Under the pieces are notes generated by a model. That model ran no database searches, was not told the origin of the DNA, and worked only from the letters and a program-made list of their open reading frames with translations. A program made the position numbers and the translations under genes. Shown in pieces: positions 2,799 through 63,556 of a stretch of DNA of 64,000 nt. This DNA is from a phage: the sequence record PZ386958.1; one strand, written 5' to 3'. Every line of letters starts with the position of its first letter. The first letter of the stretch is position 1.

Positions 2799-3080
2799 AA
2801 TGACCTCAAAGTTATATTAAATTTTGTATTACATTGAGTATAAAAATAAGCTATAACACCTGACTTGTCAACAGATTTTATAGCTTATTTGGCAGATTTT
2901 TTATAAGGCTACTGCCACCCTTCCATACCAGACCACACCATGCAAAACCAGACTTCACATCACCCGACCGTGCAATACATCACTTAAAAACCCTCTTAGA
3001 AGACTCTTAAGTGATGCTGGTGAGTACCCGTTGGTTTATGCTGCTCAGTATACTCACCAAATTTTCTATGTCAACAACTT

Positions 3081-4181
3081 TTATTCATAATCTCGTATAA
3101 CTAACCCAACAGGGAACTGTAAAGACCCCTTACGAGTCATCTTCTGGAACTGAACCGTTAAAGGTTTCCCGATAAACTCTTCAGGATGTTCAGCAAGATA
3201 CTGTTTCTTCTCGTGTGTAGTTTTCCATGAAACATCTACAAAGACGTTAGGAAGAGTCTCTACAACGAACTTACCATGACCACGCTTATCAGTCTTTACA
3301 CCAGTCACTTTAAACTCTTCAGTGTGCATCTTCTTGTGTTTAATCAAGAAGTATGAACGGTGACAACACTCATAGAAGGAGTCTTCAGAGATTGAACGGT
3401 ACATTGCACCTTCAAACTGAGCTTCAACCCACTTATCATGGGCTTCATCAAACTCTTCCCAAGAATTTACACGACGAGACTTAACAGGAACAACTTTACA
3501 GCCGTCTCTGAAGTCATTCAATGGTGAAGTCTCAATAATATCTCTACGCTCAGGCCATGTCTTAGTGCTGTCACAGATATCGTACCAGTAGAACTGGAGT
3601 AGATGTCGGTCTGGATTGTCAGCATTCTTAATCATAGACACAATGTCTTCTAAGTCCCAGCCATGAGCATAAATCTCGCCATCAAAGTCTTCAACTTGTG
3701 GATGTAATTTAAGCAACAAAAGCAAATCTGGGATTAGTTCTGCTGGAACGTTGTAAACAGTATTCTCACGAGAATAAGCCGTGAAACTAACTGTATCAGC
3801 ATCTCTTGAAATTCTACAACGGACACCATCAAGTTTTGGTTGAGCATCAGCAGGAAACTTCAGATACTTTGCATGGCTAACCTTTGCAGCATCATGAGCA
3901 AGCTGTACACCTACCTTCTCAGTATTCTGTGCAGACTCTTTTGTGTAAGCATAGCCTTTGCGGTCAATTTGCTTTTTATACTTAGCAGCAACTTCAAAGA
4001 GAGCTTGCTGTTCAGCATTACGCTCATTCTTTTTACCGATGTTTTTAGGTTCTGCTGTGTACTCTTCAAACATCATCTTGCCATTTTCTTTACCGTAGGT
4101 TGTAATAACTTTGTCACCTACAGCAACGCATGACCAGACGTTAAAAGAACCATCTTTATTTTGTTTGTACAGTGTTGTCAT
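3081..4181 (-). CDS. ATP-dependent DNA ligase
   Basis: 366 aa; nucleotidyltransferase motif I KLDGVR (adenylated lysine), motif III FDGEIY, motif IV EGAMYR, motif V LIKHKK. Confidence 0.75.
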   Translation of the reverse strand: MTTLYKQNKDGSFNVWSCVAVGDKVITTYGKENGKMMFEEYTAEPKNIGKKNERNAEQQALFEVAAKYKKQIDRKGYAYTKESAQNTEKVGVQLAHDAAKVSHAKYLKFPADAQPKLDGVRCRISRDADTVSFTAYSRENTVYNVPAELIPDLLLLLKLHPQVEDFDGEIYAHGWDLEDIVSMIKNADNPDRHLLQFYWYDICDSTKTWPERRDIIETSPLNDFRDGCKVVPVKSRRVNSWEEFDEAHDKWVEAQFEGAMYRSISEDSFYECCHRSYFLIKHKKMHTEEFKVTGVKTDKRGHGKFVVETLPNVFVDVSWKTTHEKKQYLAEHPEEFIGKPLTVQFQKMTRKGSLQFPVGLVIRDYE

Positions 4182-4384
4182 TTTCTCTTACCACCAATCT
4201 CTACGTCGATAACTTGAACATCGCCAGCAACATCAAACTTATGAATGATGCTTTCCACAGTGTAAGTACAACCATCAATGCGAACCAACTCACCTTCTCG
4301 TGGGACGATTGGGTTACGTTGAGCTACGGTTGCAGTGGAGTGAATAACATCATAACAGTAGATATAGTTTACTAGGACTTCCAT
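4178..4384 (-). CDS. Hypothetical small protein
   Basis: 68-aa ORF, translationally coupled in operon. Confidence 0.3.
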   Translation of the reverse strand: MEVLVNYIYCYDVIHSTATVAQRNPIVPREGELVRIDGCTYTVESIIHKFDVAGDVQVIDVEIGGKRK

Positions 4385-5704: not shown

Positions 5705-7877
5705 ACGCATAAATGCCATTTTTGGCTTTCTTACGACCTTTTGTAATCTCGTGGAGAAGTTCCTCATCCTGTGTCTCCCTACAACGAACAATATCTTCTT
5801 CCTTGTTCAGACCAAAGTAAATACTGTTCAGTGTATGCGCATCAGTCCCTGTGTAGACTTCATAGAGGTCGTTCTCAGCATCATAACGAAGATACTTGTC
5901 AGTTTCTGGATTAAGATACTTATCGAGATGCTTGCAATAGTATCTGCCATCATCCTGTTTAGTGAACTCTACAAACTCTTTACCCTCAGTTACTGCTTTA
6001 GTGAACTCTTTATCACCCATAAAGTTACAAAGGAGAACTAGCTGGGCTGAGTTCATATCAACGGAGACTACGTTGGTTCCCTCCTCACAAATCCAAACCT
6101 CCCTCATCGGTGCTCCATAGACAGCAGCACCAGACGGTACGTTTACAATGCCATATTGTGTCATACGTCCAGTTGAAGTACCAAACACCATTGCACCAGC
6201 ACTAAGGCGACCATCAGGACGAATCTGGTTCAACCAACCTTTTTCATCATCCTTTGAGTTCTCAATAGTTCTGCGTCGGTGCATCAAAGTGTAGTATTTA
6301 GCAATCTTCTGTCCAAGCTCACCTTCAATCGTATCATAAGATGATTCAGTAAGTTTTGGTGAAGTACGGATTAAGCAAGGCTCAAGCAAATCTGTGTATT
6401 TCTTCACAGACCAGTTATGCTCAATGTACTGTACACCTTCATGTTCAACATAACTCAAACCACACCGCTCAACCATTTCCTGCCACTTAGGATGTTTTGT
6501 AATCATCTTTTTATTGTCTTTGAAACGACAAACTTTGACAGGACGACCATCTGAGTCTTTCTTGTAGTTCCAGTCATCTGGAATCCAACCAACTGATTTC
6601 AAGTAGTCTTTAACAACGGCTACCTGAGTCATACGAGAAACTTCAAACTCAATTGGTGTATATGGTGCATCAATCAAACCTGTGTAGCGACTTGACTCAA
6701 GTTCAAAGTGGTTAACAACGTGGCTGTTATAGTACTTCACAGTCTTGACTGTTTTTACTGGTTTCCAGTCTTTGCATTTTTTGCCAATCTTTGCATTCAA
6801 CTCGTTGCAGATTGCACGAGCATCCTTCATTGCTACAAAGCCTTCCTTGTATTCTTCACCAGTTACAGTGTTGGTTGGCGTATAGCAATTCCTTTTTTCA
6901 ATGTTAAAAATCTTTGTAGTTGGCTTACCAAATGGCTTGATTTCATATGTCTGCATCTCACCGTTACGTACCTGCTGACGATACTTTGTCTTAGGGTACT
7001 TGGTAATTCTCTTCAGTCCATCTGCGTGACCAAATGCTTCAACATACTCATTCCAAGCTTTTGCAAACTCTTCTCCAGTAACTTTACCTTTGGTCTTAAT
7101 AGTTGGAGGTAGATGTGGTTCAACCTCTGAAGCAAGCTCATTAGTCAACTTGTCAAGTTCCTTTACATGGAACTCCATAAGCTCTTTATCAGCTTTCCAA
7201 CCATTGATAGCTTGTTGACTCATCCAGAAAGATGTTTCTTTAGCTCGCATGTAGGTTTCATAAGTGTCTATGCCACACTTCTTAAGCTTGAGATACTCGT
7301 TATCAAGTGCCCGTTTAGTTTTGGCGTTAATACGGATATCTTCTACAACACGAGTGAAGATTTCTGCATTCCACACACCCCAATGCTCAATCTCTGGCTT
7401 ACGAACACCAACACGAGCACCCCATGCAGCCAAGCCATGAGCACCTTTATAACCCTTTGGAGTTGGTCTATCCATCCACTGAACACGAGACTGAATAAGA
7501 GAATCCTGAAAGAAATTACTCCACGGCTTACATTTTGGATTATCAAAGTTCCATAAATCAGGTGCAATGTGATTGAAAACCCACCAGTCATAGCCGAGAC
7601 CATTATGGATGCAAAGACGTTTTGCCTTTAACGCAAATTCAACACCTTCACGTAAGCCGCCCTTGATGTACTTGGTATACTTGTGACCGAGGATAGGCTC
7701 GTCTGTAAAGACCCATACAGGCGGCTCTTCATCGTCAGATTTATAATCTGCGAAAGCCATTACGTGCACTTTAGTGAACTCAAGGAGTAAACCATCAGTT
7801 TCTGTATCACCAACCAAATGTAAGTTTTTAAAATCTACGTTTTCCATTTTTACTCCCTCTAAAATCATTAACCACAT
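5705..7877 (-). CDS. DNA polymerase (family A, T7 gp5-like), exon 1 (3'-5' exonuclease plus N-terminal polymerase domain)
   Basis: Exo I motif DTETDGL near N-terminus; ends with O-helix RKKAKNGIY (T7: RDNAKTFIYG). The track ORF reads 13 codons into the intron before a stop. Confidence 0.8.
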
Positions 7878-25876: not shown

Positions 25877-26392
25877 ATGTATCTGTCAAACCTGAAACGT
25901 TCGGCTGCAATGTCAGTTCTAAGACTCAGTTTTGAGGAACGTCAAGAGTTCATTGACTCCCACCAATACGACCCTTCTAACTCAAATCACATGATTCTTT
26001 GGAATCGTGATAACTTCCGTGAAAGAGCACTTGTCCGTTATTACCCACACTACACAATAGACAACCTGTATGAATGGTGTGTCGTGAAGAACACTATTGC
26101 AACACTGAACAATCTTTGCAGGTATACAGGTAAGCAAACATTCACACTAGGCCATCATAAACCTGTTACAAAAGGTGGTGAGCATCACTGTGCGAACTGG
26201 TTTATCCAAACTAAAGCTGATAACCAGAAGCAAGGAGATAACCTCCTAAGCACTCCTAAGATGACCTATGAAGAGCAAGAGAAATATATCAAAAATAATA
26301 TGCCAGATGTGCTTGACAACAACTATACAGATTTGGCAATATCTCTCCTGTTGAAGTTCGAGACAGTTTATAGGGCAACTTACAATGGCTAA
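25877..26392 (+). CDS. HNH endonuclease
   Basis: 171 aa; LGHHKPVTKGGEHHCANW resembles HNH motif. Confidence 0.45.
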   Translation: MYLSNLKRSAAMSVLRLSFEERQEFIDSHQYDPSNSNHMILWNRDNFRERALVRYYPHYTIDNLYEWCVVKNTIATLNNLCRYTGKQTFTLGHHKPVTKGGEHHCANWFIQTKADNQKQGDNLLSTPKMTYEEQEKYIKNNMPDVLDNNYTDLAISLLLKFETVYRATYNG

Positions 26393-26663
26393 AGAGAAGT
26401 GGGAGATTTTACCACTAGTCAGTGAGGGTGGGAATGGTTGTGAAATGTACATAATACGTGGTCATGTTCCAGAACCAATTGCACTTGAGATGATAAACAA
26501 TTTTACAGATGGTTCTTACAAAGATTTAGGAGAGCCAACTATAAAGCATCAATGGGTCAAACCTGTACCAGACAGCACAGGTAACTGTAGTGTACTTTAT
26601 CACGTTGTAGACCCTGCAAAATGCAAATCTGCAATGGCAGTAACAAACATAACCTTTGATTGA
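26385..26663 (+). CDS. Hypothetical protein
   Basis: 92-aa ORF. Confidence 0.3.
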   Translation: MAKEKWEILPLVSEGGNGCEMYIIRGHVPEPIALEMINNFTDGSYKDLGEPTIKHQWVKPVPDSTGNCSVLYHVVDPAKCKSAMAVTNITFD

Positions 26664-27556
26664 GAGAGAAAACTATGAAAACTGTTATTGAAGTCGTTGT
26701 CACCGCACAAGAGAAATTCTTCCACACAGAAAAATTTAATATCATCCAATTCCCATCTGGAGAAATTGGTGGAAACTTCTCTGAAGATTTTGTTAAGTTT
26801 ACTGAGCGTAATGCTGGTAAGGTTGACAATGTTATACTTACTGTGCAGGGATATGATAAAGATACACTGTTTGCATTAGCTTTGGCTAAGGATGCCGTTG
26901 ACAGTCTTGTCCCACATAAATCAGCGATGAAAACCGTTGTTTTCGGGTTCTTACCGAATGCTCGATATGACCGACATATGTTCAAAGGTGATTCAGCAGC
27001 ACTGAAAGCTTTTGCCAACCTCGTTAATGCAATGGGCTTTGATGCAGTATGTGCTCTTGACCCTCACAGTAATGTTGCAGAAAACTTATTTAAGTGCTTT
27101 CAGAGCATGAAGCAAAAAGATGTGGCAGTACACTTTGCAAGTGACCCGCGCATTGATTTCTTGGTAGCCCCAGATGCAGGTGCAGCTAAGAAGACTGAAG
27201 AGACTGCTAAAGAGGTGGATAAACCATACATCACAATGACTAAAATGCGTAACCTTAAGACTGGTGAAATTACTGGTATGCGAATCCTTGATGATGTTGA
27301 TTTGACCGATAAAACTGTTATGATTCTCGACGATATCTGTGATGGTGGTCGAACCTTCATAGAAGCAGCTAAACATCTTCGTGAAGCAGGTGCAAAACGT
27401 GTGGAACTCTATGTAACTCATGGCATTTTCTCTAAAGGTGTTGAAAGCTTACTTGACAATGGCATTGACCATATCTACACTACAAACACTTTAGGTGAAG
27501 CTAAAGACCGTGGCTTAACACATTATGGCCAAGTTACTGTAGCAACCATTGATTAG
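26660..27556 (+). CDS. Ribose-phosphate pyrophosphokinase (PRPP synthetase)-family protein; candidate ADPR-pyrophosphate synthetase
   Basis: 298 aa; PRPP-binding loop VMILDDICDGGRTF and RVELYVTHGIFS resemble Prs (VDDMIDTGGT ... RVFAYATHPIFS). Confidence 0.7.
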   Translation: MREKTMKTVIEVVVTAQEKFFHTEKFNIIQFPSGEIGGNFSEDFVKFTERNAGKVDNVILTVQGYDKDTLFALALAKDAVDSLVPHKSAMKTVVFGFLPNARYDRHMFKGDSAALKAFANLVNAMGFDAVCALDPHSNVAENLFKCFQSMKQKDVAVHFASDPRIDFLVAPDAGAAKKTEETAKEVDKPYITMTKMRNLKTGEITGMRILDDVDLTDKTVMILDDICDGGRTFIEAAKHLREAGAKRVELYVTHGIFSKGVESLLDNGIDHIYTTNTLGEAKDRGLTHYGQVTVATID

Positions 27557-56655: not shown

Positions 56656-57027
56656 ATGAAAAACAGAACAAACAAAGGCCAGTTTAAAAAAGGCCAGTCT
56701 GGAAACCCATCTGGAAGACCAAAAGGCTCTCGTAACAAAAGCTCACTCGTAAAAGCTCAACTGACCATTGATAATTCTGCTGAGTTTGCTGCAAAGTTGT
56801 TTGAAGCGATTGTTACAAGGGACGCTGCTAAGCTTGCAGAGTTCGGTTTGACGACTGACGATGTAAACCTGAAGTCGATGATGGAAGCTGGTAAAACTAT
56901 CATGACCCACTCAGCAGGTGAGATGAAAGCAATTGCAGCAGACACTAAGAAGACCCCTGATAATGGTGGTCAGTCTCAGACAGATAACAAACCAACGTTC
57001 TCTGCTGTAGCGACTCTCAAAAAATAA
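56656..57027 (+). CDS. Small protein with AT-hook-like motif (KGQSGNPSGRPKGSRNK)
   Basis: 123 aa; GRP core in basic, glycine-rich N-terminus. Confidence 0.4.
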   Translation: MKNRTNKGQFKKGQSGNPSGRPKGSRNKSSLVKAQLTIDNSAEFAAKLFEAIVTRDAAKLAEFGLTTDDVNLKSMMEAGKTIMTHSAGEMKAIAADTKKTPDNGGQSQTDNKPTFSAVATLKK

Positions 57028-57109
57028 TTTTAAAAGGTGTTGACAGACTCTACAAAGTTGCTCTAAAGTCTGTCACATCAACAAACAAAATGAGAGAAGA
57101 GAGTAAAAT

Positions 57110-58486
57110 ATGAGCGAATTATTTAAACATGCGCACCTTCATGCAGGTCGAACTGAAAATGGTGCTGTAAACCATACTTCATCAATGTCTGCTCTTGTAG
57201 ACTTTTACAAAGCTGCTGGTTCAAGCCGTAGCAACGTAGAAATCTTACCAGACCTGTTCTACAAAGCTTTGCGTGAGGATGTTGATGTTGCAGTTCGTAT
57301 TTTGCTTCATATGCGAGATGTGCGAGAAGGTATGGGTGAGCGTAAAGCCTTCAGAACTGTTTTGCTTCAAGCAATTGAAGATAAAGTTTTAGAGCCTACA
57401 CAGGTTCTTCGCATTATGGATAAGATTGCAGAACTTGGTCGTTTTGATGACTTCAAAATCTTCGTAGGTACTCGTTTCGAGACGGATGCCTTCAAACATT
57501 TAGAAGCAGCATTACTAGACCCTGCAACAGCAGGTTTGGCAGCTAAGTGGTTACCACGAGTCAAACCACGTCATAAGCAGTTTGTAAAACGTTTCTGCAA
57601 GTTTGCCAACTTGAGTGAGAAAGAGTACCGCACACTGTTATCTGCACTGTCTGATACAGTTGAGCAAAAAATCTCTGCTAATGAGTTTGGTAAGATTGAC
57701 TACAGCAAGATTCCTTCACTTGCTGCTGCACGTTACCAAAAACTGTTTAACCGTAAAGATGGAGAACGCTACAAAGCTTATATTGAGTCTTTATCAAAAG
57801 GTGAGGCTAAGATTAACGCTGGTGCTGTTTACCCATACGATGTGATTAAGTCTATCAAGCATGGTAATGCAGATGTTGCCAATGAGCAGTGGAAAGCACT
57901 ACCAAACTGGATGGCAGAAGGTGAGAACATCTTGTGTATGACTGATGTTTCAAGCTCAATGTCTTGGGTGAATCTTGGCTCAATCACCGCCCTTGATATT
58001 GGTGTATCACTTGCCTTGTATGTAGCAGAACGCAATACAGGCTGCTTTAAGAATGAGTTAATGGTTTACTCAACAAACCCTCACTTCATCGAACTGAGTG
58101 GTGATTTACGAAATCGTCATCGTCAGGTGATGCGACACGTTGAATATGGTTCAACTAACTTACAAGCAGCTTTTGACCGCATTCTTGAGGTAGGTAAGAG
58201 AAACAACTTGACTCAGAAAGATATGCCAAGTAAGCTTATTATCTTCTCTGATATGGAGTTCAATCAGGTTGATGGTGCAAATGGTCGTACAAACTTTGAA
58301 GCAATTCAGAGTAAGTACAAAAAAGCTGGATACGAAATGCCTCAACTGGTATTCTGGTACTTAGCAAACCGTAATGGTACTTGCGAAGTGTCTGTTAAGG
58401 ATAACGGTGTAGCAATGGTATCAGGGTTCTCTCCAGCCACTTTAAAAGCTCTGCTTGGTGGTGAGAAGTTTGACCAATCAGCGTAA
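57110..58486 (+). CDS. von Willebrand factor A (vWA) domain protein with N-terminal helical domain (possible TROVE/Ro60-like or DUF2828-like)
   Basis: 458 aa; MIDAS motif DVSSS in LCMTDVSSSMSW; N-terminal 270 aa helical; directly upstream of tRNA cluster. Confidence 0.45.
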   Translation: MSELFKHAHLHAGRTENGAVNHTSSMSALVDFYKAAGSSRSNVEILPDLFYKALREDVDVAVRILLHMRDVREGMGERKAFRTVLLQAIEDKVLEPTQVLRIMDKIAELGRFDDFKIFVGTRFETDAFKHLEAALLDPATAGLAAKWLPRVKPRHKQFVKRFCKFANLSEKEYRTLLSALSDTVEQKISANEFGKIDYSKIPSLAAARYQKLFNRKDGERYKAYIESLSKGEAKINAGAVYPYDVIKSIKHGNADVANEQWKALPNWMAEGENILCMTDVSSSMSWVNLGSITALDIGVSLALYVAERNTGCFKNELMVYSTNPHFIELSGDLRNRHRQVMRHVEYGSTNLQAAFDRILEVGKRNNLTQKDMPSKLIIFSDMEFNQVDGANGRTNFEAIQSKYKKAGYEMPQLVFWYLANRNGTCEVSVKDNGVAMVSGFSPATLKALLGGEKFDQSA

Positions 58487-58540
58487 TGCTCAAAGCAGTA
58501 ATGATTGACCGTTATATCTGGTAAAAAGTTTTAAAAAGGG

Positions 58541-58575
58541 TATTGACAATGTGTTTAATACCCTTTAATATGTTC
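58541..58575 (+). promoter_or_regulatory. Promoter-like element (gggtattgacaatgtgtttaataccctttaatatg)
   Basis: TTGACA then TAATAT-like box at appropriate spacing upstream of tRNA cluster. Confidence 0.35.
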
Positions 58576-58689
58576 TACATAGAAACGAAATGAGAGCTTT
58601 TCTAAGATACTGAAAAATATTTTAAAAAAGTTCTTGACAACCACTAAAAAATAATGTTAAAGTGGTTACATAGAGTTTGAAAAGTTTAT

Positions 58690-58766
58690 CTCTGTTTAGC
58701 TCAGCTTGGTAGAGCGTTCCGTTTGGGGCGGTAAGGCCGGAGGTTCAAGTCCTCCAACAGAGACCA
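58690..58766 (+). tRNA. tRNA-Pro (anticodon TGG)
   Basis: Acceptor CTCTGTT/AACAGAG, T-arm GGAGG-TTCAAGT-CCTCC, loop TTTGGGG, 3' CCA encoded. Confidence 0.6.
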
Positions 58767-58773
58767 AATTAAT

Positions 58774-58851
58774 GTTCCAGTAGACAAAATGGTATAGTCA
58801 CCACTCTTTCAAAGTGGATATCTGAGGGTTCAAATCCCTTCTGGAACGCCA
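58774..58851 (+). tRNA. tRNA-Glu (anticodon TTC)
   Basis: Acceptor GTTCCAG/CTGGAAC, anticodon stem CCACT/AGTGG loop CTTTCAA, T-loop TTCAAAT, CCA encoded. Confidence 0.6.
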
Positions 58852-58857
58852 GTTTTG

Positions 58858-58931
58858 ACAGAAGACCAATTACAGCAAACTTAATCTTATTCATCTGAAG
58901 GTAAATCGGACAAAGAAGAGATTTGGTCTGG
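58858..58931 (+). ncRNA. Bracket stem-loop element a (ACAGAAGACCaatTACAGCAA ... tTTGGTCTGG)
   Basis: 5' AGACCAA pairs with 3' TTGGTCT; conserved TACAGCAA; one of four copies with compensatory changes. Confidence 0.45.
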
Positions 58932-58942
58932 TCATTAAGAAT

Positions 58943-59019
58943 TGCGGGTATAGAGAAAGGGCGTCTCACATGTCTCATTAGCATGGTATCGGCAGGTTCG
59001 ACTCCTGCACCCGCCTCCA
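58943..59019 (+). tRNA. tRNA with CAT anticodon (Met or Ile-lysidine)
   Basis: Anticodon stem CATGT/GCATG loop CTCATTA; T-arm GCAGG-TTCGACT-CCTGC; 1-72 mismatch; CCA encoded. Confidence 0.5.
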
Positions 59020-59024
59020 AATTT

Positions 59025-59090
59025 ACAGAAGACCGTTTACAGCAATATTTATTAAATTTTTAGCGGAAAAATTGAAAGATACGGTCTGGT
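59025..59090 (+). ncRNA. Bracket stem-loop element b
   Basis: ACAGAAGACCGTTTACAGCAA ... ACGGTCTGG; AGACCGT pairs with ACGGTCT. Confidence 0.45.
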
Positions 59091-59102
59091 AATACTAAAC
59101 AT

Positions 59103-59179
59103 GGTTAGGAAGCACATAAGGTATGTGCGGTCGCCTGTTAAGCGAATGGCACAGGGTTCGAATCCCTGACTAACCGCCA
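59103..59179 (+). tRNA. tRNA-Asn (anticodon GTT)
   Basis: Loop CTGTTAA; T-arm CAGGG-TTCGAAT-CCCTG; acceptor 3' ACTAACC-G-CCA. Confidence 0.55.
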
Positions 59180-59248
59180 AATTTAGGAGAGAAGCGATTG
59201 CTCACCGATTTGTAAGGTGCAAGTCCTTAGCCTGAATAGAAATTAAAT

Positions 59249-59336
59249 GTGTCGTTATCCCGTAGATGGTAGCGGTGGGGACTGTAAATCCCTTGTCATT
59301 GAGACTCGGTAGGTTCTACTCCTACACGGCACACCA
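59249..59336 (+). tRNA. tRNA-Tyr (anticodon GTA), long variable arm
   Basis: 88 nt; anticodon stem GGGGA/TCCCT loop CTGTAAA; acceptor GTGTCGT/ACGGCAC; CCA encoded. Confidence 0.55.
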
Positions 59337-59341
59337 ATAAA

Positions 59342-59419
59342 GGTTATGTAGTTTAATTTGGTTAAAATACTCCCCTGTCACGGGAGATGATGAGGGTTCA
59401 AATCCCTTCGTAACCGCCA
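59342..59419 (+). tRNA. tRNA-Asp (anticodon GTC)
   Basis: Anticodon stem CTCCC/GGGAG loop CTGTCAC; T-arm GAGGG-TTCAAAT-CCCTT; CCA encoded. Confidence 0.6.
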
Positions 59420-59450
59420 ATTTTGAGAGGGCTATTTAGCCCCTCCCTTA

Positions 59451-59478
59451 AATGGTTCTTACGAGTATCCTTTAAAGG
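59451..59478 (+). ncRNA. Conserved small hairpin GGTTCTTACGAG(T/A)(A/G)TCCTT(T)AAA (copy 1)
   Basis: Second copy at 62447-62474. Confidence 0.3.
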
Positions 59479-59480
59479 AG

Positions 59481-59553
59481 CAGAAGACCAAATACAGCAA
59501 GAACGTATGAAATTTCAAGCCAATTTAATTTTGAAAATTTAAACTTGGTCTGG
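59481..59553 (+). ncRNA. Bracket stem-loop element c
   Basis: CAGAAGACCAAATACAGCAA ... CTTGGTCTGG. Confidence 0.45.
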
Positions 59554-59565
59554 CTCAACAAATTT

Positions 59566-59698
59566 ACAGAAGACCGTCTACAGCAAAACTTAAACAATCT
59601 ATTTCTCCGGTAAAGAAAAGGCGAAGGTTCGATTCCTTCACTCGGCAGATGTCGAGTTGGTGTAATGGTAGCACTTAAGATGATAAACAACGGTCTGG
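59566..59698 (+). ncRNA. Bracket element d enclosing a permuted tRNA-like module (T-arm, acceptor-like hairpin, D-arm); candidate Y-RNA-like ncRNA
   Basis: Closing stem AGACCGT(C)/ACGGTCT; inside: GAAGG-TTCGATT-CCTTC, hairpin ACTCGGC-AGAT-GTCGAGT, then TGGTGTAATGGTAGCAC; no anticodon arm. Confidence 0.45.
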
Positions 59699-59701
59699 TA
59701 A

Positions 59702-59841
59702 TTATCTTTGTAGATAAGTTATTAAGCTTACCTGTGAGTATGCGACCACAAAGGGTGAAAGGGTAAATTCTAGATTTAAACCCAAAAAGGCACATCGCTA
59801 CAGACCTTAAGCAAGTCTGGGTAGCTTATCTACAAAGATAA
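59702..59841 (+). ncRNA. Structured element closed by a perfect 17-bp inverted repeat (TTATCTTTGTAGATAAG / CTTATCTACAAAGATAA)
   Basis: Enclosed ~106 nt has internal hairpins (CAGACCTTAAGCAAGTCTG; AGCTTACC...GGTAGCTT); no ORF. Confidence 0.4.
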
Positions 59842-59847
59842 TTTAAT

Positions 59848-59923
59848 GGAAGTGTAGCAGAATGGTGATGCGGCAGACTTTTAATCTGACAGGCGATGGG
59901 TTCGAATCCCTCCACTTCTACCA
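59848..59923 (+). tRNA. tRNA-Lys (anticodon TTT)
   Basis: Acceptor GGAAGTG/CACTTCT; D-loop AGCAGAATGGTGATGC; loop CTTTTAA; T-loop TTCGAAT; CCA encoded. Confidence 0.55.
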
Positions 59924-59927
59924 AAAT

Positions 59928-60004
59928 GGTTCAGTCGCAGATAAGGTAATGCAGGGGTCTCATAAGCCCTATGAATGTGGGTTCGATTCCCATCTGAACC
60001 TCCA
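59928..60004 (+). tRNA. tRNA with CAT anticodon (second copy; Met or Ile-lysidine)
   Basis: Acceptor GGTTCAG/CTGAACC; anticodon stem GGGGT/GCCCT loop CTCATAA; T-loop TTCGATT; CCA encoded. Confidence 0.5.
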
Positions 60005-60006
60005 AT

Positions 60007-60081
60007 TGTGGGTTAGCATAAATGGTAATGCAAACGGCTGATAACCGTTAGAAGAGGGTTCGATACCCTCACCTACAACCA
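60007..60081 (+). tRNA. tRNA-Ile (anticodon GAT)
   Basis: Anticodon stem AACGG/CCGTT loop CTGATAA; T-arm GAGGG-TTCGATA-CCCTC; CCA encoded. Confidence 0.6.
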
Positions 60082-60095
60082 ATTTCAATAAAGTT

Positions 60096-60130
60096 GTTGA
60101 CATTAAGATGTGACTACTTTATAGTAACCT
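60096..60130 (+). promoter_or_regulatory. Sigma70-like promoter inside tRNA cluster (gttgacattaagatgtgactactttatagtaacc)
   Basis: TTGACA - 17 nt - TATAGT. Confidence 0.5.
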
Positions 60131-60328
60131 TAGTTTTCGTTGCGTAGCGTCTATTTTGCAAATTTAAAATAAATGCAAACGACAATGTTTTTCTGGCAGT
60201 AGCTTGATAGGCTAAACACCAGTGAGGTCTTCCAATCCCTCATCAAAGAATTTGGCGTACTCGCCCACGGTATGATTAATAAGGTGGGCATCTTTAAGGG
60301 CTTTCTAAGAGAGTCTTTAAAGATTAAT

Positions 60329-60403
60329 GCTCCGTTAGTCTAAAGGATAGGCATCTGTCTTCTAAACAGATTGATATAGGTTCGAGTCCTATACGGAGTG
60401 CCA
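60329..60403 (+). tRNA. tRNA-Arg (anticodon TCT)
   Basis: Acceptor GCTCCGT/ACGGAGT; anticodon stem TCTGT/ACAGA loop CTTCTAA; T-loop TTCGAGT; CCA encoded. Confidence 0.6.
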
Positions 60404-60519
60404 TATTTAGAGTGTCTCCAAATGGAGGTGGTCTGTATCTCATGTTTTCCAGAACATGTAAATAATCTGAGAAGGGGCTTTACAGTGTTGAGATAATACG
60501 GTAAGCTTCGAATTATAAT

Positions 60520-60602
60520 ATGGGACGATGTTAAGACTCTAAGGCATGAGCAACGGCTTCCAACACCGTTTCAAAGGGGTTCAACTCCTCCGTCCCATGC
60601 CA
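60520..60602 (+). tRNA. Atypical 83-nt tRNA (possible anticodon CCA, Trp) or tRNA-like gene
   Basis: Acceptor ATGGGAC/GTCCCAT and T-arm AGGGG-TTCAACT-CCTCC clear, CCA encoded; D/anticodon region too long and folds ambiguously. Confidence 0.35.
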
Positions 60603-60615
60603 AAGTCTTATTAGG

Positions 60616-60703
60616 GGTAGGTAGCGGCTAATGGTAGCCAAACTGTCTTGAAAACAGTTGCCACTGTAGAGATACGGTGAGGGTTCGACTCCTTTACTTA
60701 CCG
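60616..60703 (+). tRNA. tRNA-Ser (anticodon TGA), long variable arm; CCA apparently not encoded
   Basis: Anticodon stem ACTGT/ACAGT loop CTTGAAA; long extra arm; T-arm GAGGG-TTCGACT-CCTTT; acceptor 3' ACTTACC-G then CCT. Confidence 0.45.
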
Positions 60704-60859
60704 CCTAATAAGATTTTAAAGCCAAGCTTCATTCGGATGTTGCTTTGGCATCCCTCGTGTTGTCGTACACACTAATAAAGCACCTAGTAGGTGTCATGGA
60801 GAAGAGATAATATCAAGCTCTCCAAAGGTTCTAGTCACCGGATTAAACAAGACTATGCA

Positions 60860-60880
60860 AAGACCAATTTAGGTCTTTTT
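60860..60880 (+). terminator. Hairpin plus T-run (aagaccaatttaggtcttttt)
   Basis: Stem AGACC/GGTCT followed by TTTTT within tRNA cluster. Confidence 0.45.
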
Positions 60881-60959
60881 AGAGGGCTTCTAAGGTTATT
60901 ACAGCTTGTTGTGGAACCTTGTTGCTTAGGTTCTTAGAAGTTCTCTAAAAAGATTTAAT

Positions 60960-61036
60960 GCACCTATAGCCCAACTGGTAGAGGCAGCAGACTTAGAATC
61001 TGCTCAGTGTGAGTTCGAATCTCTCTAGGTGTACCA
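60960..61036 (+). tRNA. tRNA with anticodon TAG (Leu-decoding), short variable arm
   Basis: Acceptor GCACCTA/TAGGTGT; anticodon stem GCAGA/TCTGC loop CTTAGAA; T-loop TTCGAAT; CCA encoded. Confidence 0.45.
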
Positions 61037-61043
61037 AATTAAT

Positions 61044-61119
61044 GCAGGTGTAGCAGAATGGTGATGCGGCTGACTCTTAATCAGTAAGACGATGGGTTCA
61101 ATTCCCTCCACCTGTACCA
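61044..61119 (+). tRNA. tRNA-Lys (anticodon CTT)
   Basis: Paralog of 59848-59923; loop CTCTTAA; acceptor GCAGGTG/CACCTGT; CCA encoded. Confidence 0.55.
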
Positions 61120-61125
61120 AACATT

Positions 61126-61201
61126 GGGGATGTAGTTTACATGGTTAAAACATAAGTTTTGCAAACTTAAGTACAGGGTTCAATTCCCTGCTTCTCCACC
61201 A
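61126..61201 (+). tRNA. tRNA-Ala (anticodon TGC)
   Basis: Anticodon stem TAAGT/ACTTA loop TTTGCAA; G3:U70 wobble in acceptor; T-arm CAGGG-TTCAATT-CCCTG; CCA encoded. Confidence 0.55.
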
Positions 61202-61207
61202 ATTAGT

Positions 61208-61282
61208 GCATCCATAGTTTAAACGGGAAAATTACAGTCTTCCAAACTGAGGTTGAGGGTTCGATTCCCTCTGGATGCTCCA
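61208..61282 (+). tRNA. tRNA-Gly (anticodon TCC)
   Basis: Acceptor GCATCCA/TGGATGC; loop CTTCCAA; T-loop TTCGATT; CCA encoded. Confidence 0.6.
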
Positions 61283-61288
61283 AATAAA

Positions 61289-61365
61289 GCTGCTTTCGTA
61301 TAATTGGCTATTACACATCCCTTGTAAGGATGGAAATGCAGGTTCGAGTCCTGTGAGCAGCACCA
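61289..61365 (+). tRNA. tRNA-Thr (anticodon TGT)
   Basis: Acceptor GCTGCTT/GAGCAGC; anticodon stem CATCC/GGATG loop CTTGTAA; T-loop TTCGAGT; CCA encoded. Confidence 0.6.
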
Positions 61366-61367
61366 AT

Positions 61368-61455
61368 TCAGAGGTCAAGTGAAAGACCGCTGGTGTCAAC
61401 TGAAGACCGTAACAAATTCCACGGAGTTGAGTTAGCGGCACAACTTCAGACCTCT
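61368..61455 (+). ncRNA. Structured non-tRNA element with nested stems (CAGAGGTC...GACCTCT outer stem)
   Basis: Inner pairs TCAACT/AGTTGA and CCGCTG/AGCGG; contains bracket-like GAAGACCG; no ORF. Confidence 0.35.
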
Positions 61456-61460
61456 TTCAC

Positions 61461-61541
61461 ACTCGCTTAGTTTATATGGTAAAACATCACCCTTACAAGA
61501 TGAAGATGAAGAAAAAGGTTCAAGTCCTTTAGTGAGTACCA
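61461..61541 (+). tRNA. tRNA-like gene, atypical (possible anticodon TAC, Val) with enlarged variable region
   Basis: Acceptor ACTCGCT/AGTGAGT, T-arm AAAGG-TTCAAGT-CCTTT, CCA encoded; anticodon stem has a C-A mismatch. Confidence 0.35.
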
Positions 61542-61542
61542 T

Positions 61543-61620
61543 GTTCCAGTATCCCAATTGGCAGAGGATGCAAGCTCAAACCTTGTATTAGTGACGGTTC
61601 GAATCCGTCTTGGAACACCA
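61543..61620 (+). tRNA. tRNA with anticodon CAA (Leu-decoding), short variable arm
   Basis: Acceptor GTTCCAG/TTGGAAC; anticodon stem GCAAG/CTTGT loop CTCAAAC; T-loop TTCGAAT; CCA encoded. Confidence 0.45.
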
Positions 61621-61638
61621 ATTTAAAGAGGCTATTTA

Positions 61639-62196
61639 ATGAGATATTTGAAGTACGCTTCATGGATTTTCTTAGCTTTACTAGACCCAATTGCAGCAAC
61701 CCTAGCAGTTATCTTAGCACCTTTCGTAGTTCCATTCTACAGTGAAAAGAAAGGACACTTACCTTTTGGATTCAGATGGATGGAGACTTATGACAACCCG
61801 ATTGATGGTGATGAAGGCCACGTTAAAAGATGGGCTAAGATTAGAAAGATTGGTAAGCTTGGTGTCTACATGCAGAGAGTTGGATGGCTCTGGAGAAACA
61901 AAGCTTATAACTTCTCTTACCATGTATTAGGAAGAGATGTAAAAGATGTTACTAAGTGGAAAGGTAATATCAACGTAAGTTCTAACCCTGAAGATAATCA
62001 GACTGGTTATCTCCTAATGTGGAACAGTAATGCTTGGGGATTATTCGCTTTTATCCCATCAATTAAAGTCTTTGGTAAACAGTTTTACTGGAGAATTTAT
62101 ATTGGATGGAAACTAAAAAGTGTTGTCCCAGAAGAAAGAGCATTCTCAAGGGAAAGAGTTATGTTGGCATTCTTTATTCATCCACTGAGAAAGTAA
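61639..62196 (+). CDS. Membrane protein embedded in tRNA cluster
   Basis: 185 aa; hydrophobic N-terminus WIFLALLDPIAATLAVILAPFVVPF; flanked by tRNA genes. Confidence 0.45.
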   Translation: MRYLKYASWIFLALLDPIAATLAVILAPFVVPFYSEKKGHLPFGFRWMETYDNPIDGDEGHVKRWAKIRKIGKLGVYMQRVGWLWRNKAYNFSYHVLGRDVKDVTKWKGNINVSSNPEDNQTGYLLMWNSNAWGLFAFIPSIKVFGKQFYWRIYIGWKLKSVVPEERAFSRERVMLAFFIHPLRK

Positions 62197-62204
62197 AGAT
62201 TTAA

Positions 62205-62280
62205 AGGGGATTAGTTTACAAGGTTAAAACCTCGGTCTTTGAAATCGAAGAAGTTGGTTCAATTCCAACATCCCCCGCCA
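62205..62280 (+). tRNA. tRNA-Gln (anticodon TTG)
   Basis: Anticodon stem TCGGT/ATCGA loop CTTTGAA; T-arm GTTGG-TTCAATT-CCAAC; 1-72 mismatch; CCA encoded. Confidence 0.5.
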
Positions 62281-62282
62281 AT

Positions 62283-62361
62283 GCTCCATTACTCCAATTG
62301 GCAGAGAGGCCAGACTTAAAATCTGTGTTATGTATCGGTTCGAATCCGATATGGAGTACCA
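62283..62361 (+). tRNA. tRNA with anticodon TAA (Leu-decoding), short variable arm
   Basis: Acceptor GCTCCAT/ATGGAGT; loop CTTAAAA; T-arm ATCGG-TTCGAAT-CCGAT; CCA encoded. Confidence 0.45.
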
Positions 62362-62366
62362 AATTT

Positions 62367-62442
62367 AGCGGTATAGCATAACTGGCAATGCAGCAGTCTC
62401 TGAAGCTGTCTTATTAAGGTTCAAATCCTTATGCCGCTGCCA
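62367..62442 (+). tRNA. tRNA-Gln (anticodon CTG)
   Basis: Acceptor AGCGGTA/TGCCGCT; loop CTCTGAA; T-arm TAAGG-TTCAAAT-CCTTA; CCA encoded. Confidence 0.5.
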
Positions 62443-62446
62443 CTTC

Positions 62447-62474
62447 TAAGGGTTCTTACGAGAGTCCTTAAATG
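62447..62474 (+). ncRNA. Conserved small hairpin TAAGGGTTCTTACGAGAGTCCTTAAATG (copy 2)
   Basis: Stem TAAGG/CCTTA; same loop as 59451-59478. Confidence 0.3.
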
Positions 62475-62549
62475 TGGCCTTATCATAAATGGTAATGACC
62501 CATGCTGTGAACATGGTCTATACGGGTTCAAATCCCGTAGGTCACCCCA
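62474..62549 (+). tRNA. tRNA-His (anticodon GTG)
   Basis: Acceptor GTGGCCT/AGGTCAC; anticodon stem CCATG/CATGG loop CTGTGAA; T-arm ACGGG-TTCAAAT-CCCGT; CCA encoded. Confidence 0.6.
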
Positions 62550-62554
62550 ATTTA

Positions 62555-62631
62555 TAGTCCAAGTAGCTTATATGGTTAAAGCGCGTGTCTGAAAAACATG
62601 AGAAGAGGGTTCAAATCCCACTGGACTACCA
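62555..62631 (+). tRNA. tRNA-Phe (anticodon GAA)
   Basis: Anticodon stem CGTGT/ACATG loop CTGAAAA; T-loop TTCAAAT; acceptor AGTCCAA/CTGGACT (one mismatch); CCA encoded. Confidence 0.5.
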
Positions 62632-62647
62632 ATTTCAAAGGTGCTTA

Positions 62648-63382
62648 ATGAAAGAGATGACAGAACAAGGTAAGGAGATTTTTAATCTCTTAAAAACCGG
62701 TAGAGGGTTTTCTAATCCCCTTATTACTGGTGCAGCAGTTCTAGGTGGAACCGTGGCTGCCTCTACATCACTTGTAAGCTCTATTAGCTCTGTAACAGAC
62801 CCTACAATAAAGGATAAACTTATTGCTGCTGGACTTACAACAGTTCTGCTTAATAGCTTTACAACGAGTCTGACAAGCACTACATCAACTACTAAGACCC
62901 TAACAGACTATGGTCAAAAGTCTATTGATGAGTTTTCATCACGTATGCAGGTAGCAAAGGGATACTCCAATGTTATGGGTGCAGCAGGAGAACAAGTCGG
63001 TTGTACACCATTCAGTGGTATTATGGGTGTTGCTACAGAGTATGGTCAAAAAGCTATTGATATGATTAACAGTGCACTAGACGGTGTTAATGATGTATTA
63101 AGTGACTTACAAGACGCTATTGACAAAGGTCTTGATACTATTTCTGATTTAGCTAACCAAGCTGTTAGTAAGATTAATGAAGGTATCTCGAAGATTACAG
63201 CTTATGCAGATGAAGTTGTGCAGATGATTGAAGAAGAAGCTGCCCTTATTGCAGAGTACCTTAAAACGAATATCAATGGGTTCTTAGCAGGTATCTTACC
63301 AGACTGGTTTGATGATGCTTGTAAAACTGGTGTAATTGATACTATTGCAACACCAGAAATGAAGAACGCATTACAGAAATAA
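62648..63382 (+). CDS. Hypothetical protein embedded in tRNA cluster (Ser/Thr-rich N-terminal region)
   Basis: Start MKEMTEQGKE chosen downstream of tRNA-Phe (track ORF 62585 would overlap the tRNA); about 244 aa. Confidence 0.45.
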   Translation: MKEMTEQGKEIFNLLKTGRGFSNPLITGAAVLGGTVAASTSLVSSISSVTDPTIKDKLIAAGLTTVLLNSFTTSLTSTTSTTKTLTDYGQKSIDEFSSRMQVAKGYSNVMGAAGEQVGCTPFSGIMGVATEYGQKAIDMINSALDGVNDVLSDLQDAIDKGLDTISDLANQAVSKINEGISKITAYADEVVQMIEEEAALIAEYLKTNINGFLAGILPDWFDDACKTGVIDTIATPEMKNALQK

Positions 63383-63383
63383 T

Positions 63384-63476
63384 GGAAGATTAACCCTAAA
63401 AGGTAAGGGAGCAGTTTGCTAAACTGCCAGTAGCTGAGAAATCGGTGTACCAGTTCAAGTCTGGTATCTTCCTCCA
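63384..63476 (+). tRNA. tRNA-Ser (anticodon GCT), long variable arm
   Basis: Acceptor GGAAGAT/ATCTTCC; anticodon stem GCAGT/ACTGC loop TTGCTAA; long extra arm; T-arm ACCAG-TTCAAGT-CTGGT; CCA encoded. Confidence 0.55.
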
Positions 63477-63480
63477 ATTT

Positions 63481-63556
63481 GAATCCGTGACAGAAATGGC
63501 TATGTGCCTGTCTGCAAAACAGGTTTATAAGGGTTCGAGTCCCTTCGGATTCTCCA
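63481..63556 (+). tRNA. tRNA-Cys (anticodon GCA)
   Basis: Acceptor GAATCCG/CGGATTC (perfect); anticodon stem CCTGT/ACAGG loop CTGCAAA; T-arm AAGGG-TTCGAGT-CCCTT; CCA encoded. Confidence 0.6.

What the first reader, a model, noticed from the sequence alone, without database searches (positions are those of the whole stretch)
57110..59698. vWA-domain protein next to a stem-enclosed, permuted tRNA-like module: possible Ro60/Y-RNA-like ribonucleoprotein
Bracket element d (59566-59698) encloses, between its stem strands, a T-arm-like hairpin (GAAGG-TTCGATT-CCTTC), an acceptor-like hairpin (ACTCGGC-AGAT-GTCGAGT) and a D-arm-like segment (TGGTGTAATGGTAGCAC), with no anticodon arm. This is a 3'-half-then-5'-half permuted layout. 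A tRNA-mimicking module closed by a long stem is the architecture reported for bacterial and phage Y RNAs that bind Ro60/Rsr. About 1.1 kb upstream is a 458-aa protein with a C-terminal vWA domain (MIDAS DVSSS) and an N-terminal helical domain of unknown fold; Ro60 is a TROVE plus vWA protein. The link is speculative.
Basis: inference. Interest (0 to 1): 0.65.

Follow-up and report, generated by a model that had tools for sequence, protein, structure and literature searches.

The report
Phage Ro60-like protein with Y-like RNAs
A Felix O1-type phage encodes a ring-shaped Ro60-like protein and, just downstream among its tRNA genes, four small RNAs that share one conserved "closing stem plus CAGCAA" box (one carries a rearranged tRNA-like body); the same protein–RNA pairing recurs in hundreds of unrelated phages, pointing to a widespread, so far undescribed relative of the Ro60/Y-RNA particle.

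The parts
57040..57069 (+). sigma-70-like promoter upstream of the Ro60-like gene (TTGACA-18-TAAAGT), embedded in an inverted repeat
   Evidence: consensus match only
57110..58486 (+). Ro60-like protein gene (DUF2828 + DUF7788/vWA with MIDAS D279/S281/S283/T349/D381); 458 aa here, 471 aa in relatives (1-nt shorter C run near 58475)
58543..58663 (+). two sigma-70-like promoters (58543-58571, 58634-58663) ahead of the tRNA / box-RNA cluster
   Evidence: consensus match only
58858..58932 (+). box RNA a (short type): helix 58863-58869 / 58923-58929, CAGCAA 58873-58878; lies between tRNA-Glu and a tRNA-Met-like gene
59025..59090 (+). box RNA b (short type): helix 59030-59036 / 59081-59087, CAGCAA 59040-59045, internal hairpin AAUUUUU-AGCGG-AAAAAUU
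59480..59554 (+). box RNA c (short type): helix 59485-59491 / 59545-59551, CAGCAA 59495-59500
59566..59699 (+). box RNA d (long, tRNA-like type; the finding): helix 59571-59577 / 59690-59696, CAGCAA 59581-59586, V-like hairpin 59602-59618, T arm 59623-59639, acceptor-like hairpin 59640-59657, D arm 59660-59674
59700..59843 (+). element e (tentative fifth member): 19-bp terminal stem 59700-59718 / 59825-59843 enclosing three hairpins, one of them CAGAC-CUUAAGCAA-GUCUG (59801-59819), a box-like hairpin
   Evidence: MFE -49.4 kcal/mol, z -5.2; compensatory changes in SUSP2, Sf13, Moogle, L126
58690..60081 (+). first block of the tRNA cluster (9 ARAGORN tRNAs) in which a-e are interspersed; no terminator-like site on the + strand inside it

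Best explanation
The locus encodes a Ro60/Y-RNA-type ribonucleoprotein built from a divergent protein family and a matching, previously undescribed RNA family. Steps: (1) the tRNA cluster downstream of the gene is transcribed from the promoters at 58543/58634 as a precursor, and processing of the flanking tRNAs (RNase P at 5' ends, 3' trimming) releases RNAs a-d (inferred). (2) In each RNA the 5' and 3' ends pair into a 7-bp helix whose outer three pairs are conserved (AGA/UCU) and inner four vary with compensation; it is flanked by a conserved A.G juxtaposition and followed on the 5' strand by nUW-CAGCAA (shown by comparison). (3) The ring-shaped Ro60-like protein binds this box, as Ro60 binds the conserved stem/CGAA region of Y RNAs (inferred from strand-specific adjacency in very different phages). 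(4) The variable insert is an adaptor: in d a tRNA-like body lacking a decoding anticodon arm, in a-c simple AU-rich hairpins; these would recruit or decoy tRNA-recognising or RNA-decay/repair enzymes (speculative). (5) Where a minimal box abuts the gene's own Shine-Dalgarno (other lineages), the protein would repress its own translation (inferred). Net role: control, repair or protection of RNA during infection, including counter-defence, as suggested by the reported need for the Bas63 orthologue on hosts carrying the Ppl system.
Against: No binding, expression or end-mapping data for these RNAs. No TROVE Pfam hit in any of 75 relatives and no sequence-level PDB hit. The canonical Ro-binding motif (GNCGAAN0-1G / CGAA / GGUCCGA) is absent and no Rfam Y RNA model matches. 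My element finder requires a 6-bp complement, so pairing of those six pairs is by construction; only the strand asymmetry, the enrichment and the 7th pair are independent. Loci were hand-picked. 11-20 of 80 loci show no box within 3 kb. Only 15/75 and 27/80 loci have a T-loop-bearing element, so the tRNA-like body is optional. The window's own gene copy lacks the conserved C-terminal tail. The one highly transcribed region given with coordinates in Listeria phage CKA15 maps ~0.7-1.2 kb upstream of the boxes, not onto them.
Confidence: 0.65

Rival explanations
1. The boxes are cis-acting processing or stability signals (punctuation) of the tRNA operon and of the DUF2828 mRNA, recognised by host RNases, and are not partners of the phage protein.
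For: In the window they sit between tRNAs with 5-12-nt spacers; in many other loci they lie in the 5' leader of the gene.
Against: In LeBron and Listeria WIL-1 the boxes are next to the DUF2828 gene with no tRNA between or beside them; the common denominator over Gram-negative, Gram-positive and actinobacterial phages is the gene, not tRNAs or a shared host RNase; an invariant 6-nt single-stranded motif plus conserved A.G flank is more than RNase E/III sites usually need.
Confidence: 0.13
2. The box RNAs are real trans-acting RNAs but are bound by another factor (a host RNA chaperone or nuclease, or the small DUF5681 protein encoded just upstream), and merely share an operon with the Ro60-like gene.
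For: DUF5681 precedes the gene in all Ounavirinae-like contigs.
Against: DUF5681 is absent from L129, L130, L132, LeBron and WIL-1 loci, which still have boxes; box variants track protein clades (UCUGG in Felix-like, UCCAG in P778/LeBron, CUUG in Clostridia contigs).
Confidence: 0.12
3. Element d is a decayed or rearranged tRNA pseudogene and the bracket is a chance inverted repeat.
For: It lies in a tRNA cluster; Rfam tRNA model gives a partial sub-threshold hit (22 bits); single-sequence folding z only -1.5.
Against: Architecture and pairing conserved with compensatory changes across distant phages; four paralogous boxes in the window; same order as YrlA.
Confidence: 0.03
4. The bracketed units are miniature mobile elements with terminal inverted repeats that spread among tRNA genes.
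For: Multiple copies with similar ends in one region; arrays in some contigs.
Against: Strictly one strand and one neighbourhood; 7-bp 'repeats' that differ between copies yet stay complementary; no copies elsewhere in the 64-kb window; no target duplications seen.
Confidence: 0.02

Closest known systems
Bacterial Ro60 (Rsr) with YrlA/YrlB Y RNAs (Salmonella rsr-yrlBA-rtcBA; Chen et al. 2014, PMC4201824)
   Same: Ring + vWA protein fold; RNAs encoded within ~1 kb on the same strand; 5'/3' terminal stem with a conserved motif on the 5' strand just inside it; one long RNA with a tRNA-like domain in the order V, T, acceptor-like stem-loop, D, plus shorter RNA(s) without it; RNA-repair gene neighbours in some loci.
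   Different: Protein is DUF2828/DUF7788, no TROVE match by sequence, ~60 aa shorter; box is A-AGA-N4-nUW-CAGCAA...N4-UCU-G instead of GNCGAAN0-1G; up to 8 RNAs per locus; RNAs embedded in a phage tRNA cluster; no Rfam match.
Thermus phage phiLo Ro60 with Yrl1/Yrl2 (PMC12135203; PDB 9KOP, 9L5Y)
   Different: phiLo protein is a recognised TROVE protein; its RNAs carry the CGAA motif and no tRNA-like body is described; binding there is shown experimentally, here it is not.
Bas63 gp130 (Felixounavirus; PhageMaP preprint PMC11482910) and 'Ro-like RNA-binding protein' of cluster L mycobacteriophages
   Same: Same protein family (orthologue by position directly upstream of the tRNA block; LeBron gp53 32% identical over 97%); Ro60-like structure already noted; authors guessed that Y RNAs hide among the tRNA genes.
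   Different: Those reports did not identify the RNAs; here the candidates are the non-tRNA spacers a-d (and LeBron's three elements after gp53), defined by a shared box.
Circularly permuted tRNA genes and permuted tmRNA
   Same: 3' half precedes 5' half; acceptor-stem equivalents joined.
   Different: Here the acceptor is closed by a 4-nt loop, there is no decoding anticodon arm and the ends form a protein-box helix; no evidence of circularisation; the non-permuted counterpart exists in another phage (S13).

Membership tests
Ro60 / TROVE protein family | TROVE domain detectable by sequence (Pfam PF05731) or sequence similarity to solved Ro60/Rsr | tested here: not met
   Pfam gives only DUF2828 + DUF7788 for the protein and for all 75 relatives; phmmer and profile search of PDB sequences find no Ro60
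Ro60 / TROVE protein family | Fold: alpha-helical HEAT-like repeat domain plus C-terminal vWA domain, superposable on Ro60 | tested here: met
Ro60 / TROVE protein family | MIDAS motif (DxSxS...T...D) in the vWA domain | tested here: met
   D279, S281, S283, T349, D381 invariant in 75 sequences
Ro60 / TROVE protein family | Binds Y RNA stem on the outer ring surface and misfolded RNA ends in the central hole | not testable with these tools
   needs biochemistry or a complex structure
Y RNA, YrlA subfamily | Encoded within ~4 kb of the Ro60 gene on the same strand | tested here: met
   a-d lie 0.37-1.2 kb downstream, + strand; strand-specific adjacency in 60/80 and 69/80 unselected loci
Y RNA, YrlA subfamily | 5' and 3' regions pair into a terminal stem | tested here: met
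   7-bp helix, four inner pairs covary; true RNA ends not mapped
Y RNA, YrlA subfamily | Ro-binding motif GNCGAAN0-1G (bacteria) / CGAA / GGUCCGA bulged helix (animals) | tested here: not met
   Not present in a-d; position is occupied by nUW-CAGCAA; motif definitions
Y RNA, YrlA subfamily | tRNA-like domain: V, T, acceptor-like stem-loop, D in this order, with T-loop and D-loop consensus bases | tested here: met
   Element d and 12 counterparts; UUCGAUU T loop, GG in D loop, U at position 8
Y RNA, YrlA subfamily | Match to a curated RNA family model | tested here: not met
   No Y RNA or other non-tRNA family at E <= 10 in 58850-59850, nor in 9 related loci
Y RNA, YrlA subfamily | tRNA-type modifications, RNase P cleavage, CCA addition | not testable with these tools
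   experimental
Functional tRNA / permuted tRNA gene | Complete cloverleaf with anticodon arm and free acceptor end, detected by tRNA finders | tested here: not met
   ARAGORN tRNAs, none at 59566-59699; Rfam tRNA 22 bits < 29 threshold, partial
DUF2828/DUF7788 phage proteins (PHROG 850) | Significant match to the family profiles over the full length | tested here: met
   PHROG 850 E 4e-177, residues 1-454; Pfam above cut-offs; 2834 homologues at E <= 1e-5; 710 phage records

The most novel reading that the evidence does not exclude
The 'CAGCAA-box' RNAs are a large, unrecognised class of modular adaptor RNAs that are the obligate partners of DUF2828 Ro60-like proteins in phages of many bacterial phyla: one protein-binding box, exchangeable payloads (tRNA-like bodies in permuted or non-permuted form, plain hairpins, arrays of up to eight), plus box copies in the gene's own leader for feedback control. 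The particle acts on tRNA or RNA repair/decay to defeat host defence. Because DUF2828 also occurs in plants and other eukaryotes, the same logic may extend to an unexplored eukaryotic RNP.
Probability: 0.45. Interest if true: 0.8.

Novelty: new variant of a known kind. Interest (0 to 1): 0.72.

Why it matters
Ro60/Y-RNA particles are known from animals, about 5% of bacteria and a few phages, and their function is still debated. Here a second, sequence-unrelated-looking branch of the same protein fold turns out to have its own RNA partners with a different recognition box, present in hundreds of phage genomes including model phages (Felix O1 group, BASEL Bas63, Listeria P100/A511 group, mycobacteriophage cluster L). 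This (i) explains unannotated spacers and odd 'tRNA-OTHER' calls in phage tRNA clusters, (ii) gives a precise, mutable RNA target for testing how the Bas63 gene counters the Ppl defence, (iii) offers natural experiments on Y-RNA design (permuted versus non-permuted tRNA mimic, minimal 30-nt box), and (iv) suggests a function for the DUF2828 family at large.

Tried and rejected
Single-sequence AlphaFold gave an unusable model (pLDDT 45); repeated with a 75-sequence alignment. phmmer and profile hmmsearch against PDB sequences found nothing relevant. Rfam at permissive thresholds gave only tRNA and noise. An exact-pattern scan of IMG/VR with CAGAAGACCnnnnnCAGCAA returned mostly single chance hits and only a few true Ounavirinae loci, so I switched to protein-anchored loci. 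blastn 'distant' with the RNA region only picked up tRNAs outside the genus. MAFFT misaligned the acceptor hairpins, so they were left out of the formal pair count and parsed per sequence instead; I did not build a covariance model. Covariation counts on the six selected helix pairs would be circular and were not used as evidence. I tried to equate the box RNAs of Listeria phages with the 'highly transcribed regions' of phage CKA15; the only region with published coordinates maps elsewhere, so no expression evidence is claimed. Supplementary tables of Chen et al. 2014 (list of 22 phages) are not held, so I could not check whether any DUF2828 phage was in their set. With G-U pairs allowed, the fixed-geometry test loses specificity (9 and 11 hits on the two strands of the window).
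Full report
WHAT THE WINDOW IS. The 3.2 kb around the finding is 97-98% identical to Felixounavirus genomes (LF82P3, adrianh, Si3, FM4b) and matches 341 phage records. ARAGORN finds 25 tRNA genes at 58690-63556, all on the + strand. In annotated relatives the ORF is called 'RNA-binding protein', 'vWFA protein' or 'hypothetical protein', and nothing is annotated in the spacers that hold the bracket elements.

THE OBSERVATION. ORF 57110-58486 (458 aa) is real. Pfam gives DUF2828 (residues 172-264) and DUF7788 (275-456); PHROGs gives phrog_850 'RNA-binding protein', E 4e-177. The DVSSS motif is D279/S281/S283, invariant in a 75-sequence alignment together with T349 and D381, i.e. a complete MIDAS. 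The exact 5' box AGAAGACCnnnTACAGCAA occurs four times, at 58860, 59027, 59482 and 59568, more than in any of 100 shuffles. Each has a 7-bp complement followed by GG 55-125 nt downstream. The paralogues already covary: ACCAA/UUGGU in a and c, ACCGU/ACGGU in b and d.

THE PROTEIN. Sequence searches against solved structures find nothing relevant, either with the single sequence or with a profile. None of 75 family members hits Pfam TROVE; 15 hit vWA_Ro60 weakly. A single-sequence AlphaFold model was useless (pLDDT 45). With the alignment the model reached pLDDT 90.2 and pTM 0.88.

This likeness is not new. Mycobacteriophage homologues (32-35% identical over 97%) are annotated 'Ro-like RNA binding protein'. 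The PhageMaP preprint states that Bas63 gp130, directly upstream of the tRNA genes of this Felixounavirus, resembles Ro60, is needed on hosts with the Ppl defence, and that 'some tRNA genes are possibly Y RNAs' (PMC11482910). A Listeria phage study reports an HHpred match of CKA15_055 to Rsr (PMC12282133).

THE RNAS: A SHARED BOX. Looking downstream of the homologous gene in phages of decreasing relatedness, I found the same arrangement with different helix sequences. The loci were SUSP2, Sf13 and Moogle (84-88% protein identity), Yersinia phage P778 (53%), and seven metagenomic contigs (47-63%, some about 150 kb with unrelated gene neighbourhoods). Examples:
- Window: ACAGAAGACCGUuuaCAGCAA...ACGGUCUGG.
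- P778: CACAGGACUGUuuaCAGCAA...ACAGUCCAG.
- L127: CAAAAGUGUCuuuaCAGCAA...GACACUGG.
- L131: UAAAGAGCACauuCAGCAA...GUGCUCUG.

It also appears:
- directly after gp53 of mycobacteriophage LeBron (three elements, the middle one tRNA-like);
- directly before the gene in Listeria phage WIL-1 (three), Enterococcus phage EF5 (one) and Campylobacter phage F352 (two);
- 1.3-2 kb upstream in Sinorhizobium phage phiM7 (two);
- after the gene in the T4-like Cronobacter phage S13.

From 51 non-identical elements the consensus is 5' C-A-n-A | A-G-A-N4 | n-U-W | C-A-G-C-A-A ... N4-U-C-U | G 3'. That is a 7-bp helix with three conserved outer pairs and four free inner pairs. It is flanked by a conserved A opposite G that almost never forms a pair (8/51), and followed by an invariant single-stranded hexamer.

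IS THE BOX-GENE LINK MORE THAN CHANCE? My finder demands a 6-nt exact complement at a fixed offset, so pairing of those positions is by construction and is not counted as evidence. The independent measures are these.
- In 18 loci, 51 of 67 C[AC]GCAA sites in the non-coding stretch beside the gene pass, against 24 of 271 elsewhere in the same loci on both strands. The latter is about the 6-9% expected by chance (Fisher p 6e-28).
- The seventh pair, not used for selection, is formed in 43/51 against 8/24 in background hits, and the eighth is at background, so the helix has a defined length.
- In 80 IMG/VR contigs chosen only by protein similarity (38-99% identity), 131 of 380 sites pass on the gene's strand against 20 of 256 on the other strand (p 3e-16). 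60 of 80 loci have at least one. Outside the five Felixounavirus loci, 80 of 110 hits lie within 700 nt of the gene.
- In 80 contigs from the species-representative genome set, mostly MAGs of Clostridia, Chloroflexota, Gammaproteobacteria and even a Pacearchaeota bin (34-42% identity), 189 of 553 pass against 25 of 338 (p 5e-22). 69 of 80 loci are positive, with arrays of up to eight elements.

THE tRNA-LIKE BODY. Thirteen long elements from phages as far apart as Felixounavirus, LeBron, phiM7 and S13 were examined.
- All have a 5-bp T stem with a UUCRANY loop.
- Most have a 5-7-bp hairpin immediately after it (7/7 in eight of them).
- Two nucleotides follow, usually U plus a purine.
- Then comes a 4-bp D stem with a GG-containing loop.
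The stems are entirely different in sequence, e.g. acceptor-like stems ACUCGGC, UUCCCCG, UCAGGUC, CGCCACC, CGCUCCC.

On the MAFFT alignment, a structure of closing helix, V hairpin, T arm and D arm gives 89% paired cells against 39-51% when partners are slid. The covariation score is 0.615 against 0.10-0.16, with 0 of 500 shuffles as high. RNAalifold on an unguided alignment independently finds the closing helix, T arm and acceptor hairpin, with 14 of 17 pairs compensated.

The order V, T, acceptor-like stem-loop, D between the strands of a terminal stem is exactly that published for YrlA (PMC4201824). Cronobacter S13 carries a natural circular permutation of it. Two RNAs annotated as 121-nt 'tRNA-Ser' and 113-nt 'tRNA-OTHER' have an open acceptor stem with CCA, normal D and T arms (Rfam tRNA 56.9 and 40.9 bits), and, in place of the anticodon arm, the box closed as a hairpin: CAAACU-GACA-AGUUUG followed by UAUUCAGCA. 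The loop is made of the conserved 3' G and 5' A plus two nucleotides. The tRNA-like body is optional: T-loop-bearing elements occur in 15/75 and 27/80 of the unselected loci. The box is the universal feature.

LEADER BOXES. In seven IMG/VR loci a 30-37-nt minimal box (helix, CAGCAA, about 14-nt loop) ends 0-3 nt before the Shine-Dalgarno of the DUF2828 gene, e.g. UAAAGAAUUugaaCAGCAAucacguaaauuaacAAUUCUGAAGGAGaaaguaaaAUG. In Vibrio phage XZ1 the 3' strand of a box overlaps the start codon. This is the classical layout for translational autoregulation, and it is the most direct hint that the protein recognises the box. It is inference.

EXPRESSION CONTEXT IN THE WINDOW. Sigma-70-like promoters lie at 57040 (before the gene), 58543 and 58634 (before the cluster) and 60097. 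No terminator-like site on the + strand interrupts 58690-60081. The elements start 6-12 nt after a tRNA 3' end or after one another, and end about 10 nt before the next tRNA. Release by tRNA processing is therefore plausible but not shown.

WHAT IT IS NOT. It is not a canonical Y RNA: the GNCGAAN0-1G / CGAA motif is absent, and no Rfam family other than tRNA matches here or in nine related loci. It is not a tRNA. It is not a pseudogene or a mobile element (see the rival explanations).

LITERATURE STATUS. Full-text searches for DUF2828, Ro-like, Felixounavirus with Ro60, and Y RNA-like found no paper that defines RNA partners for this protein family.
- The two closest statements are guesses.
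- The single highly transcribed CKA15 region with coordinates (26,236-26,727) corresponds to WIL-1 locus positions about 2948-3439, not to the three boxes at 4123-4384. I therefore claim no expression evidence.
- The same paper detected CKA15_055 in purified virions.
- LeBron gp53 is moderately toxic when overexpressed alone, and LeBron also encodes an RNA ligase and a polynucleotide kinase (PMC13148394).
- RtcB, RNA ligase and CCA-adding enzyme genes lie near the gene in Listeria WIL-1 and Pectobacterium CBB, echoing the bacterial rsr-yrlBA-rtcBA operon (from Chen et al. 2014 and my own knowledge).

VERDICT. The locus is best read as a Ro60/Y-RNA-type particle in which both partners have diverged beyond sequence recognition: the protein keeps the fold and the RNA keeps the architecture, but the recognition box differs. 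The protein part was already suspected in the literature. As far as the tools can tell, the following are new: the RNA family, its box, its breadth, the leader boxes and the permuted/non-permuted pair. Binding and function remain to be shown.

Noticed in passing
window 58470-58486: The window has GACCAATC where close relatives have GACCCAATC; the 1-nt shorter C run shifts the frame so the protein ends ...EKFDQSA (458 aa) instead of ...EKFDPISVMLKAVMIDRYIW (471 aa), losing a tail with nearly invariant P, R and Y. Sequencing error in a homopolymer or a real truncation.
   Followed up: partly
window 59700-59843: A further structured RNA right after element d: 19-bp terminal stem, MFE -49.4 kcal/mol, z -5.2; stem and an inner hairpin CAGAC-CUUAAGCAA-GUCUG (59801-59819) change with compensation in SUSP2, Sf13, Moogle and L126 (CAGUC/GACUG, CAAACC/GGUUUG). 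The loop UUWAGCAA resembles the box; no Rfam match.
   Followed up: partly
window 58943-59019: ARAGORN calls tRNA-Met (CAT) but the Rfam tRNA model does not match (only 15.9 bits to tRNA-Sec); unusual D arm without GG. The same odd gene is in Yersinia phage P778 (L005 7015-7091) and is 'tRNA-OTHER' or missing in some records.
   Followed up: no
window 57040-57078, 58535-58566, 58634-58670: The sigma-70-like promoters sit inside inverted repeats (e.g. TTGACAGACT...AGTCTGTCA; AAAGGGTATTGACA...TAATACCCTTT), with the -35 in the left arm. Possible operator or a promoter class of this phage group.
   Followed up: no
window 56656-57027: A 123-aa DUF5681 protein gene always precedes the Ro60-like gene in Ounavirinae-like genomes and contigs (Si3, L126, L127, L128, L131), but is absent from other lineages that have the box RNAs.
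   Followed up: partly
window 60024-60328: Weak, sub-threshold Rfam hits to permuted tmRNA (33.3 bits, threshold 47) and tmRNA (15.9 bits) in a ~250-nt gap that starts with the best promoter match of the region (60097). Probably noise; the gap is otherwise unexplained.
   Followed up: no
L134 5896-6016 and 6026-6138 (Cronobacter phage S13): Two over-long 'tRNAs' (121 and 113 nt, annotated tRNA-Ser and tRNA-OTHER) are non-permuted tRNA-like RNAs carrying the box as a capped hairpin in place of the anticodon arm; a third, permuted element follows at 6154-6288.
   Followed up: yes
L152 2950-2985, L150, L158, L159, L166, L184, L200; L133 3965-4005: Minimal 30-37-nt boxes ending at the Shine-Dalgarno (or overlapping the start codon in Vibrio phage XZ1) of the DUF2828 gene: likely autoregulatory operators.
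   Followed up: partly
L285, L289, L292, L297 (Clostridia MAG contigs): Tandem arrays of 6-8 box elements upstream of the DUF2828 gene, with a clade-specific box variant (AAAG-N4...CAGCAA...N4-CUUG).
   Followed up: partly
L137 2948-3439 (Listeria phage WIL-1): Counterpart of the ~490-nt region reported as very highly transcribed and probably non-coding in phage CKA15; has its own TTGACA promoter, carries three tiny annotated ORFs, no box and no Rfam match.
   Followed up: partly
L137 7308-8519 and 10079-10407; L139 2440-3696 and 9414-10395: RtcB-type 'tRNA splicing ligase', RNA ligase, HD and NADAR genes near the DUF2828 gene in Listeria WIL-1; RNA ligase and tRNA nucleotidyltransferase in Pectobacterium CBB: an RNA-repair neighbourhood.
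   Followed up: no
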